From the human T2T-CHM13v2.0 reference genome, Homo sapiens, in assembly GCF_009914755.1 (NCBI RefSeq), contig NC_060947.1: 64,000 nucleotides of DNA. One strand, 5' to 3'. Positions 14,168-16,683 of the stretch are shown here, piece after piece (the stretch's first letter is position 1; each line of letters begins with the position of its first letter). Below the pieces are notes generated by a model. It saw only the letters and a list, made by a program, of their open reading frames with translations, searched no databases and was not told the DNA's origin. Made by a program: the position numbers and the translations under genes.

Positions 14168-15639
14168 GTGAGTTACCATCATATTAAGCATGGACTGTAC
14201 TAGACATACACCCTCACAGGTTCACAAATTCATGCAACAATATTTGATCATCATCTGGAGGCAGAGCACATGCACATTATAAACAGTTATTTGGAGACTC
14301 TGACTTTAAAATGTTTCTTAAATTGAACTTCAAAATAGGTTCATGTCAGTCACACAAGTTCGAGTCTTTGAAATAATTTTAACATAATTTTGCAAATGAA
14401 TTTCTAAAATGAGGCAATGGTTTTAGAAGTGCTAAACATTTTGTTTTCATGCAGAGCATTTAATTCATTAAATGACCAATGTAACTGAAAGGAAATAATA
14501 ACCACCAGAATTCATATTTAATACTTCAGCTTTTATTTAACCCAGGATTTGACAAATAAGAAACAAAAAGACAGGAAGAGTTCTTGAAGGGTAGGGAATG
14601 TCATCATTATCTTTGCAGCAACACTGTATGATATTGTCTGGTATCGCGTTCTTTGTCGGGCTCTGTTTTTTCTCCTTGGTATAGAGCCGTATTTACTAGT
14701 GTCACCAGTTCCTCTTTACACTATATGATGGAATACAACCGAAGGACTTTCATAAACTGCATGTCCTCGGGAAGTAAAAGCAGGTTATTTCCAAATACCA
14801 CATTTACTTAGACAGTTCCCTCCCTTCTCTTCCTTTTCGCAATACTTTTGCTTAAAAAAAAAAAATGCAAAAATGGAAAACATAAAAGCACCTGGGATCA
14901 TCATAGTGATTGCTATCTTTTACTCATTTTCTATTTTTTTATTTTTAGTAATTATTTCGTTTTAAATATTTTATAATAATGCAGGATGTAAAGACATAAA
15001 ATAAGTTGATATCTAAGTAGCTATAGAAACATTAAAATAAATAGCTAGATATGAGTAAATTCTAAAGTTCATTAATAAAATAAAAATAACTGGAATATTC
15101 AAGTTCTAGGAATGTACGATTTAGCATAAATATCAAACATTATGTTGTGGAATCTGGAAATTGCTAACATTTATGGAGTTTCTTCTTAAGGCAATGAAAA
15201 TGTTCTAAAACTGTGGTGAAGGTTTCCTTAGTCTTTGAATAAACTATAAACTATTGTAATATTGTGGGCTATTTATGTGGGCATTTTTATGATAAATGAA
15301 TCTCTCAGTAAATGTTTTTTTTTAAAAAGAGGCCCAATCTTTATCTGTTCTCCACTCCCATTGCCACTTGACTAGCCTTAAAAAAAATAGGTCCAAGAGA
15401 TACATTAGAAAAAAAGCAGAAGTGAACAAAAAAGCGGTTGAATACCACCACAGCCCAAAGAATGAGGGAAAGAGAGAGAAGGTAGGAGGAGGGGAAAAGC
15501 TGCATTGCTGACTAGTTCTCTCCCCTCCTCCACTGTAGGTCTCACACACACATACACACACATATACATCACATTCTATACTAACCAGAGACAAGTCTCT
15601 GGTTGTTATTTTTAATGTCATGGGTAAAACCATGACTGT

Positions 15640-15930
15640 TTTTGTTTTGAAGATGGAGTCTCACTCTGTCGCCTAGGCTGGAGTGCAGTGGCAGGATCTC
15701 AGCTCACTGCAACCTCCACCTCCCAGGTTCAAGTGATTCTCCTGTTTCAGCCTCCCGAGTAGCTGGGACTACAGGCGCCCGCCACCACGCCCGGCTAATT
15801 TGTTTATTTTTAGTAGAGATGGGGTTTCACGGTGTTAGCCAGGATGGTCTCGATCTCCTGACCTCGTGATCCGCCCACCTCGGCCTCCCAAAGTGCTGGG
15901 ATTACAGGCGTGAGCCACCACACCCGGCCC
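15640..15930 (-). mobile_element. AluY-like element inserted into the decayed CtIP copy
   Basis: cggtgttagccaggatggtctcgatctcc; TSD catgactgtttt on both sides. Confidence 0.9.
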
Positions 15931-16438
15931 ATGACTGTTTTATTTCTTGTGAACTTGATAGTTCCTCTTATTCTTGCAAATGTTGACCATGCTTGCTCAG
16001 TGGCAGTACTCTGTGCCGAATATTCAGTCTTTGTTAATTAGGTTTTGTAGTCTTCTGCTCTTGCTTTTTGATTTTAAAAAGCACATTTTCAATAACTAGT
16101 ATACAGTCTATGTCACATCTGTTTATCTTTTATATGTATAAAGTCATGCTGTATATCTGTAAAGTCATATTCATTTTGTTCTAAGAAATGTCTTCTAGAT
16201 CCTTCTCAATGGATGTATTCTAATTACTTTGTCTTGTCCGGTAAATATTGTTTTAGTTACTCTATATGCATTTAAATATTTATCTCTTTCAAGTCCACAA
16301 TCTTGAGGTCCTCTCTTGGCTTTCTTTTTTATTGAGTCATAAACAGTAGCAACTTTAATGTCAATGAAAAGATGTTCTATCTCTACACTTTTATATGGAT
16401 TCTGGAGAATAAATTTCATTCTCTACTTATAGCTGCAT

Positions 16439-16520
16439 TTTATTAATTGACAAAAATTTGCTATTTCAAAGTCTTAGATTCATTTGCCAAACATTTTCAG
16501 GCCTTACTGCTTAGTTTATT
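16439..16520 (-). terminator. Two AATAAA poly(A) signals for the - strand ORF (16515-16520, 16439-16444)
   Basis: TTTATT on the + strand about 165 and 240 nt past the stop codon. The hexamer is common in AT-rich DNA. Confidence 0.35.
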
Positions 16521-16630
16521 ATATCGTGAGAAAAGGAATAAGAGTCAGGAGTTACCAGTTACGAAGTCTGAATTGACAAGAAGACTGTTCTGTTGGAAAA
16601 GTAAAACATTGTTGCTTCCTTAAGAGAGAA

Positions 16631-16680
16631 GGTGGTGGGGGGCGGTGGGGGGGGGGGTGAGGGGGGTGGGGGGGATGGGG
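16631..16680 (+). repeat. G-rich low-complexity tract, potential G-quadruplex
   Basis: ggtggtggggggcggtgggggggggggtgaggggggtgggggggatgggg; five runs of four or more G. Confidence 0.8.
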
Positions 16681-16683
16681 AAG

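What the first reader, a model, noticed from the sequence alone, without database searches (positions are those of the whole stretch)
14600..16683. The C-terminal half of the same CtIP copy survives as a fossil: sharp intact-versus-decayed boundary
Seen in sequence: past the stop, CtIP-like peptides continue colinearly on the - strand. These are CFTFPTEQSS then VNSDFVTGNS* (~[25 protein letters not shown], CtBP motif destroyed), MQL*VENEIY (~LQIKEENAVF), the 74-aa ORF 16419-16195, DIDCILVIENVLFKIKKQEQK at 16114-16052 (15/21 identical to recalled [21 protein letters not shown]), and at 14848-14672 KVLRKGREGREL..LEI..CSL*KSFGCIPSYSVKRNW*..RLYTKE (~EVVRKKEERRKL..CEI..CSRHRFRYIPPNTPENFW..RGYIKE). 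This half has many stops, frameshifts, an AluY and other insertions. Inference: a full-length CtIP mRNA was retroposed, the 3' half decayed and the 5' half stayed open. The decayed half is an internal neutral control arguing for selection on the 435-aa ORF.
Basis: partly seen in the sequence, partly recalled or inferred. Interest (0 to 1): 0.78.

Follow-up and report, generated by a model that had tools for sequence, protein, structure and literature searches.

The report
Half-decayed old CtIP retrocopy (RBBP8P1)
An ancient intronless copy of the DNA-repair gene CtIP inside a DOCK11 intron keeps its first 435 codons perfectly open while the next stretch is riddled with stops, which argues that a shortened CtIP-like protein was long kept by selection.

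Summary
Partly confirmed. The minus strand holds a processed, intronless copy of RBBP8/CtIP. This is the annotated pseudogene RBBP8P1.

**Intact part.** The 435-codon ORF (16684-17991) matches CtIP aa ~4-449. It matches Pfam CtIP_N at E 1.8e-21.

**Decayed part.** Past the stop, colinear CtIP homology is real:
- CDS 1380-1578 matches 16641-16464 (z 11.3; 0 of 300 shuffles reach it).
- CDS 1767-2154 matches 16399-16028 (65% identity, E 9e-32).

This 656-base stretch has 14-18 stops per 218 codons in every frame. The ORF frame has 0 internal stops in 435 codons.

**Not confirmed.**
- No CtIP aa 719-897, 3'UTR or poly-A was detected.
- A full-length retroposition is therefore not shown.
- The Alu lies outside the demonstrable copy.

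**Selection.** At the observed ~40% nucleotide mismatch, the chance of no stop in 449 codons is 8e-9 to 6e-8. It is still about 1e-5 if only half the divergence fell on the copy. The inference of selection on the ORF holds, at least historically. Whether the ORF works in humans today remains untested.

The parts
16684..17991 (-). Uninterrupted 435-codon ORF plus its TAG stop. It is equivalent to CtIP aa ~4-449. The ancestral start position lies near 17946, so about 15 N-terminal codons are new.
   Evidence: ORF listing. tblastn matches CtIP aa 17-427 to 17895-16771 in one frame, E 1.2e-21. The frameshift-tolerant alignment covers aa 4-427. The ORF frame has 0 internal stops, against 27 and 44 in the other two frames; 0 of 20000 shuffles stay open.
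17539..17886 (-). CtIP N-terminal domain inside the ORF (ORF aa 36-151). It holds the tetramerisation motif, the coiled coil and the C-x-x-C zinc hinge. The residues aligned to L27, C89 and C92 are kept.
   Evidence: Pfam PF10482, E 1.8e-21. PDB 7bgf_A E 1.6e-16 and 4d2h_A E 1.2e-4. blastn matches CDS 79-408 to 17865-17539 at 63.7% identity, E 1.3e-29. Residue roles come from passages of PMC8205527. The aligned residues are read.
16625..16683 (-). C-rich low-complexity tract directly after the stop. It sits where about 12 parental codons (aa 449-461) should be.
   Evidence: Read from the sequence. The flanking anchors are aa 449 at 16690 (permissive run) and aa 461 at 16635.
16464..16641 (-). 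Decayed continuation, part A. It corresponds to CtIP CDS 1380-1578 (aa ~461-526). The region of the CtBP-binding motif is broken.
   Evidence: DNA local alignment scores 33 with 63.8% identity and z 11.3; 0 of 300 shuffles reach it. The protein path for aa 461-486 needs 1 frameshift; 3 of 60 shuffled proteins reach its score.
16028..16444 (-). Decayed continuation, part B. It corresponds to CtIP CDS ~1711-2154 (aa ~571-718). It spans the exon 10/11, 11/12, 12/13 and 13/14 junctions without introns.
   Evidence: blastn matches CDS 1767-2154 to 16399-16028 at 65.1% identity, E 9.1e-32. Its blocks rank 1-4 of 1590 six-frame blocks. There are 4 stops (16429, 16222, 16183, 16132) and 2 frameshifts (16404, 16231) in 131 matched codons.
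15630..15941 (-). Alu insertion with a perfect 13-nt target-site duplication (15630-15642 and 15929-15941). It lies outside the demonstrable retrocopy.
   Evidence: Direct-repeat search. It is 85.8% identical to an Alu downstream of RBBP8.
14672..14848 (-). It cannot be told apart from chance.
   Evidence: as detailed in the observation check. Pfam gives 0 families.
17992..18387 (-). Single-copy, comparatively CpG-rich stretch just upstream of the ORF start. It may be promoter-like (inference).
   Evidence: Window 18001-18300 holds 14 CpG, ranking 1 of 1006 windows outside the listed repeats. Window 17901-18200 has GC 0.52 and CpG o/e 0.64, against a window median of 0.16. The only match in the genome is to itself. 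No RBBP8 5'UTR homology was found.

Best explanation
RBBP8P1 is an old processed retrocopy of RBBP8/CtIP, the parent gene on contig C18. It sits antisense in a DOCK11 intron.

Its first ~1.3 kb still reads as one 435-codon ORF. That ORF encodes the CtIP oligomerisation module (tetramerisation motif, parallel coiled coil, C-x-x-C zinc hinge) followed by a divergent, CtIP-like linker. It ends in a basic cluster. Directly after its stop lies a C-rich tract. Beyond that, the colinear copy of CtIP aa ~461-718 has decayed to random-like stop density.

The part for aa 719-897 (the Sae2-like domain), the 3'UTR and the poly-A tail are missing or unrecognisable. A later deletion is the most likely cause (inference).

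Both halves are equally diverged from the parent, yet only one is free of lesions. The ORF must therefore have been kept open by selection for most of the copy's history. It is, or was, a truncated retrogene.

Most likely mode of action (inferred, not shown): the product self-associates or co-assembles with CtIP through the retained N-terminal module. It lacks the C-terminal MRN-activating domain, so it would modulate or oppose CtIP function rather than replace it.
For: - **Processed copy.** CDS 79-408 and CDS 1767-2154 align without interruption across 4 + 4 exon junctions.
- **Domain.** CtIP_N scores 76.7 bits against a cut-off of 27. PDB 7bgf matches at E 1.6e-16. The residues aligned to L27, C89 and C92 are retained (their roles from PMC8205527).
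- **Equal divergence.** Mismatch to the parent is 0.403 in the ORF domain and 0.404 in the fossil.
- **Lesions.** The ORF has 0 stops in 435 codons. The fossil has 14-18 per 218 codons in each frame, and 0 of 20000 shuffles of the ORF stay open. On the homologous path the fossil has 4 stops and 2 frameshifts in 131 codons. One more frameshift lies in aa 461-486.
- **Neutral expectation.** About 16-18 stops are expected in 449 codons. P(none) is 8e-9 to 6e-8 at p=0.403, 2e-7 to 1e-6 at p=0.3, and 1e-5 to 5e-5 at p=0.2.
- **Placement of lesions.** The chance that 7 (or 11) lesions all fall in the last 218 of 653 codons is 4.6e-4 (or 5.7e-6).
- **Conservative replacements.** In the ORF domain the mean BLOSUM62 score is 2.19, against 1.09-1.36 simulated (p <= 0.001). 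The fossil scores 1.65 (p 0.02-0.08).
Against: - Pairwise dN/dS does not separate the halves. It is 0.34-0.66 for the ORF domain and 0.50-0.81 for the fossil, depending on the method, and dS is near saturation.
- The ORF domain is no less diverged at the nucleotide level than the fossil. Constraint on the amino-acid sequence has therefore been weak.
- Retention of hydrophobic positions is not above simulation (0.74 against 0.66, p 0.14).
- No orthologue, expression, translation or population data could be examined.
- RefSeq calls the locus a pseudogene.
- The only paper found that names it lists it as an RNA feature (passages).
- The deletion of the 3' end is inferred from absence only.
- My parent CDS was assembled by me, and I picked the exons with the help of recall. 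The checks on it are internal: 18 exons, all with GT-AG borders, giving 897 codons with no internal stop.
Confidence: 0.8

Rival explanations
1. A full-length CtIP mRNA was copied. The whole C-terminal half survives as a fossil down to 14672, split by an AluY and other insertions.
For: With very cheap gaps, one frame of 14857-14630 gives a colinear alignment to CtIP aa 796-890. Only 0.22% (gap -5/-0.5) or 1.4% (gap -6/-1) of 5106 window fragments reach its score. L1-driven retroposition normally starts at the 3' end, so a 3' part is expected to have existed (established knowledge).
Against: - With standard gaps, 38.7% of 2000 shuffles and 20.5% of 5106 fragments reach the score.
- DNA alignments of CDS 2150-2694, CDS 2340-2694 and the 3'UTR give z -0.7, -0.2 and 0.3.
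- The frameshift-tolerant alignment is reached by 20 of 40, 19 of 40 and 14 of 100 shuffled proteins.
- Pfam SAE2 finds nothing.
- The neighbouring fossil at 65% identity is easily detected, so an equally old 3' part should be detectable too.
- The position also needs about 500 unexplained extra bases.
Confidence: 0.12
2. A dead pseudogene whose long ORF is open by chance.
For: RefSeq labels it a pseudogene. The amino-acid sequence has diverged almost as fast as the decayed part.
Against: P(no stop) is 8e-9 to 5e-5 over the range of assumptions, before frameshifts are counted. 0 of 20000 shuffles stay open, and the other two frames carry 27 and 44 stops. The next-longest open frame in the whole window is 202 codons.
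Confidence: 0.02
3. A former retrogene that is no longer functional in humans. Selection kept the ORF open through much of mammalian history, has recently relaxed, and no lesion has yet struck.
For: It carries a pseudogene label, no protein is described, and constraint on the sequence is weak. No literature on a product was found.
Against: There are no lesions at all in 435 codons. The 5' end and its upstream flank are the most CpG-dense part of the window outside the listed repeats. This hints at continued germline hypomethylation, but it is an inference and a weak one.
Confidence: 0.35

Closest known systems
RBBP8 / CtIP (parent gene, contig C18 of this genome)
   Same: The N-terminal tetramerisation and coiled-coil module is shared (Pfam CtIP_N; 43% amino-acid and ~60-64% nucleotide identity over aa 17-145). 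Order is colinear through aa ~718.
   Different: The copy has no introns. Its ORF stops at the equivalent of aa ~449. The CtBP-motif region is broken and the Sae2-like C-terminal domain is absent. The start codon is new, about 15 codons upstream of the ancestral one.
RBBP8NL (paralogue on contig C20)
   Same: It also carries a CtIP_N domain (58.2 and 49.5 bits at C20). I recall, but did not test, that its likeness to CtIP is N-terminal only.
   Different: It is an intron-containing paralogue, matching exon by exon. It is not a retrocopy. The window copy derives from RBBP8 itself, because it matches RBBP8 exons 10-13.
Processed pseudogenes and truncated retrogenes in general
   Same: The copy is intronless, lies on another chromosome inside a host-gene intron, and has a decayed part full of stops and frameshifts.
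   Different: Two thirds of the recognisable copy is lesion-free at a divergence where about 16-18 stops are expected. The 3' end and poly-A tail, normally the best-kept hallmarks, are missing.

Membership tests
CtIP_N domain proteins (Pfam PF10482) | Profile score above the curated cut-off | tested here: met
   76.7 bits against a cut-off of 27, over residues 36-151 and profile positions 1-117 of 120. The genome-wide search gives 80 bits.
CtIP_N domain proteins (Pfam PF10482) | Tetramerisation-motif leucine (L27 of CtIP) and zinc ligands C89/C92 | tested here: met
   The aligned residues are L, C and C (alignment). Their roles come from passages of PMC8205527. Actual oligomerisation was not tested.
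CtIP_N domain proteins (Pfam PF10482) | Helical coiled-coil fold and oligomer formation | not testable with these tools
Only sequence likeness to the solved chain 7bgf_A is shown.
CtIP/Sae2/Ctp1 end-resection factors (full-length) | C-terminal Sae2-like domain (Pfam PF08573) | tested here: not met
   0 Pfam families in all three frames of 14600-16683 and in 14630-14857. The genome-wide SAE2 search returns C18 and a weak C11 hit, and nothing in the window.
CtIP/Sae2/Ctp1 end-resection factors (full-length) | Intact CtBP-binding motif region (aa ~490) | tested here: not met
   The region lies past the ORF stop. On the permissive path it is interrupted by a stop at 16547. That alignment is weak: 6 of 60 shuffles reach its score.
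Processed retrocopy | Colinear with the spliced mRNA across exon junctions, on a different chromosome from the parent | tested here: met
   Junctions at CDS 109, 152, 248, 361, 1812, 1939, 2028 and 2143 are bridged. The parent is on C18 and the copy on C23.
Processed retrocopy | 3' poly-A tail and target-site duplications | tested here: inconclusive
   No 3'UTR homology was found (z 0.3) and no 3' end could be defined. I did not search for target-site duplications of the retrocopy itself. At this age they may be unrecognisable.
Functional retrogene | ORF intact beyond the neutral expectation | tested here: met
Functional retrogene | dN/dS below the value expected for a neutral copy | tested here: inconclusive
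   0.34-0.66 for the ORF domain and 0.50-0.81 for the fossil. The result depends on the method and dS is near saturation.
Functional retrogene | Conservation of the ORF in other species; transcription and translation | not testable with these tools
   No other vertebrate genome, expression data or variation data are held. One paper lists RBBP8P1 among transcriptomic features.

The most novel reading that the evidence does not exclude
RBBP8P1 is not a pseudogene. It is a still-working X-linked retrogene of pre-eutherian or early eutherian age. It would make a 435-aa 'CtIP-N-only' protein, probably in germ cells. This protein would co-assemble with CtIP tetramers through the conserved tetramerisation and coiled-coil module. 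Because it lacks the MRN-activating C-terminus, it would tune or restrain DNA-end resection.
Probability: 0.3. Interest if true: 0.8.

Novelty: new member of a known kind. Interest (0 to 1): 0.5.

Why it matters
CtIP controls the first step of homologous recombination, and its tetramer is essential for repair (PMC8205527, passages). A naturally truncated paralogue that keeps only the assembly module would be a built-in candidate regulator of resection. It would also be an unannotated human protein-coding gene hidden under a pseudogene label. Even if it is now dead, the locus is a clean case where one retrocopy carries its own neutral control. That makes the claim of selection testable without outgroups.

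Tried and rejected
- **Pfam on the region below the stop.** The three stop-masked frames of 14600-16683 and two short pieces gave 0 families.
- **Large protein database, longer proteins.** No hits. The database did not yield CtIP.
- **Own-genome search with the ORF.** It returned only itself.
- **Weak SAE2 hit on C11 (E 1.9) as a possible younger retrocopy.** It has no DNA likeness to RBBP8 outside repeats, so I dropped it.
- **5'UTR homology upstream of the ORF.** None found. 20 of 100 and 72 of 100 shuffles reach the scores.
- **Read-through into intron 13 as the reason homology ends near the exon 13/14 junction.** No likeness to intron 13 or any other part of the 110-kb locus; 20 of 60 shuffles reach the score.
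- **Repeat content of 14300-15630.** Short dispersed repeats match at about 15146-15262 and 15338-15422. They do not explain the missing 3' end.
- **dN/dS.** Inconclusive.
- **Gap-event counts from permissive DNA alignments.** Unreliable. The ORF domain also shows 10 small compensating gaps. With a low frameshift cost the aligner invents 24 shifts in the ORF. I therefore used only the stringent run, which itself places 2 probably spurious, mutually compensating shifts in the ORF half.
- **Rfam on 14000-18800.** Nothing.
- **Literature.** Searches for RBBP8P1, and for RBBP8 with retrogene, retrocop*, processed pseudogene and related phrases, found no study of this copy. I did not look at supplements.

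Full report
**What is there**

On the minus strand, 16684-17991 is a 435-codon ORF. It matches Pfam CtIP_N at E 1.8e-21, with 76.7 bits against a cut-off of 27, over residues 36-151. It also matches the solved CtIP N-terminal chains 7bgf_A (E 1.6e-16) and 4d2h_A (E 1.2e-4). The hub annotation places the pseudogene RBBP8P1 at 16040-17907 on this strand, inside a DOCK11 intron.

**Getting the parent**

The protein databases on hand did not give CtIP. I located RBBP8 in the window's own genome with the two Pfam families and fetched 110 kb of contig C18. I then assembled 18 coding exons. I recognised the exons among the printed open frames with the help of recall. I fixed the borders by splice-site search.

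The result is internally consistent. All 17 introns are GT-AG. The coding sequence has 2694 nt, which is 897 codons plus a stop, with no internal stop. Its N-terminus agrees with the PDB chain printed.

**Extent of homology**

- tblastn of the assembled protein against the whole window gives aa 17-427 matching 17895-16771 in a single frame (E 1.2e-21, 27% identity). It also gives aa 590-647 matching 16398-16231 (E 0.14) and aa 689-712 matching 16114-16043 (E 6.8e-4). Nothing better than E 4 is found for aa 713-897.
- blastn gives CDS 79-408 matching 17865-17539 (63.7% identity, E 1.3e-29) and CDS 1767-2154 matching 16399-16028 (65.1% identity, E 9.1e-32).
- A DNA local alignment adds CDS 1380-1578 matching 16641-16464 (z 11.3; 0 of 300 shuffles reach it).
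- These alignments bridge eight exon junctions, so the copy is processed.
- The limits of demonstrable homology (about 17937 to 16028) agree with the RefSeq span.

| Piece | Result |
|---|---|
| First two peptides | Lie on the best path aa 461-486 to 16635-16560, with one frameshift |
| 'MQL*VENEIY', the 74-aa ORF and the 21-mer (15 of 21 identical) | All lie on the local alignment aa 575-712 to 16438-16043 |
| 14848-14672 | Not supported |

For the 14848-14672 piece:
- With standard gap costs its score is reached by 38.7% of 2000 shuffles and 20.5% of 5106 fragments.
- With cheap gaps it is reached by 6.2% or 1.35% of shuffles and by 1.4% or 0.22% of fragments. This is not significant over about 70 possible placements.
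- DNA alignments of CDS 2150-2694, CDS 2340-2694 and the 3'UTR give z -0.7, -0.2 and 0.3.
- Frameshift-tolerant alignment of aa 713-897 to 15630-14300 is matched by 20 of 40 and 19 of 40 shuffled proteins. The run restricted to 14900-14600 is matched by 14 of 100. The alignment of aa 713-800 to 16045-15951 is matched by 42 of 100.
- In a six-frame block scan, the claimed spot is not among the top 60 of 1590 blocks for aa 780-897. The aa 590-718 query puts the fossil blocks at ranks 1-4.

Homology ends about 11 nt past the exon 13/14 junction. A read-through into intron 13 is not supported. The Alu (body 15643-15928, with a 13-nt duplication) lies below this end point.

**Intact against decayed**

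- The ORF frame has 0 internal stops in 435 codons. The two other frames of the same stretch have 27 and 44. Shuffles give a mean of 28.3 and a minimum of 11, and 0 of 20000 stay open.
- The 656 bases below the stop have 14, 18 and 16 stops per 218 codons in the three frames.
- Along the homologous path there are 4 stops and 2 frameshifts in 131 matched codons. A further frameshift lies in aa 461-486.
- The stringent aligner also put two mutually compensating shifts into the ORF half. I regard these as noise, because the score gain is small.
- Nucleotide mismatch to the parent is the same in both: 0.403 for the ORF at aa 17-145 and 0.404 for the fossil at aa 575-712.
- At that mismatch, a neutral model started from the parent gives 4.5-5.2 stops for the fossil segment, and 4 are seen.
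- The same model gives 15.9-18.0 stops for the ORF-equivalent 449 codons. P(none) is 8e-9 to 6e-8.
- P(none) is 2e-7 to 1e-6 if only 30% mismatch belongs to the copy, and 1e-5 to 5e-5 at 20%. Frameshifts are not counted, so these values are upper bounds.
- A test free of rate assumptions asks whether 7 (stringent) or 11 (permissive) lesions all fall in the last 218 of 653 codons. It gives 4.6e-4 or 5.7e-6.

**Constraint on the protein**

- Replacements in the ORF's N-terminal domain are more conservative than simulated. The mean BLOSUM62 score is 2.19 against 1.09-1.36 (p <= 0.001). The fossil scores 1.65 (p 0.02-0.08).
- Pairwise dN/dS does not separate the two (0.34-0.66 against 0.50-0.81).
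- Retention of hydrophobic positions is not significant (p 0.14).
- The ORF has therefore been protected against truncation, while its sequence evolved fast.

**Age (inference)**

A mismatch of 40% corresponds to about 0.58 substitutions per site by Jukes-Cantor (my arithmetic), shared between copy and parent. That is in the range of the oldest recognisable mammalian repeats. It points to an origin around or before the eutherian radiation. I could not test this.

**What the product would be**

- By alignment, the ORF keeps the residue equivalent to L27 of the tetramerisation motif and both zinc ligands C89 and C92.
- PMC8205527 (passages) states that aa 18-32 form the tetramerisation motif and that L27E abolishes the tetramer and homologous recombination. 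It also states that the helix runs to aa 145 and that C89/C92 form a zinc hinge.
- The ORF lacks the Sae2-like domain and the CtBP-motif region.
- I therefore infer an assembly-competent, catalytically unhelpful CtIP-N protein that could join or compete with CtIP. No binding or fold prediction could be run.

**Upstream flank**

The 5' end and upstream flank (17750-18300) are the most CpG-dense stretch of the window outside the listed repeats. The flank is single-copy. This is compatible with a germline-unmethylated promoter, but that is only a hint.

**In print**

One paper names RBBP8P1, as a transcriptomic feature. Five searches found no study of an RBBP8 retrocopy. Supplements were not examined.

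**Verdict**

The locus itself is already annotated. The colinear decayed continuation is real down to 16028, but not to 14672. The full-length claim is unproven.

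Noticed in passing
window 16625-16683 (-): A C-rich low-complexity run (G-rich on the + strand) begins one codon after the ORF's TAG. It replaces about 12 parental codons and may mark the event that truncated the gene.
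   Followed up: partly
window 17750-18387: A single-copy stretch with the highest CpG count of the window outside the listed repeats (14 CpG in 18001-18300). It has no likeness to the RBBP8 5'UTR or CpG island.
   Followed up: partly
window 16028-16043: Detectable homology to the parent ends about 11 nt after the exon 13/14 junction of the assembled CDS. Neither intron 13 nor exons 14-18 can be found downstream. The cause is unexplained.
   Followed up: yes
window 17046-17126 (-): The stringent frameshift-tolerant alignment prefers another frame (the 58-aa ORF 17004-17180) for about 27 codons inside the long ORF. This could be an old compensated frameshift or alignment noise.
   Followed up: no
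window 15146-15262 and 15338-15422: Short stretches match many other chromosomes at 74-93% identity. They are old dispersed repeats of unidentified family.
   Followed up: no
window 42539-43144 (+): The second-longest open frame of the window, at 202 codons. It has no Pfam match.
   Followed up: partly
L003/L024 (G000:C11:3381917-3382165): A weak Pfam SAE2 match (20.6 bits, E 1.9, 2 stops). It has no DNA likeness to RBBP8 and is probably chance.
   Followed up: yes
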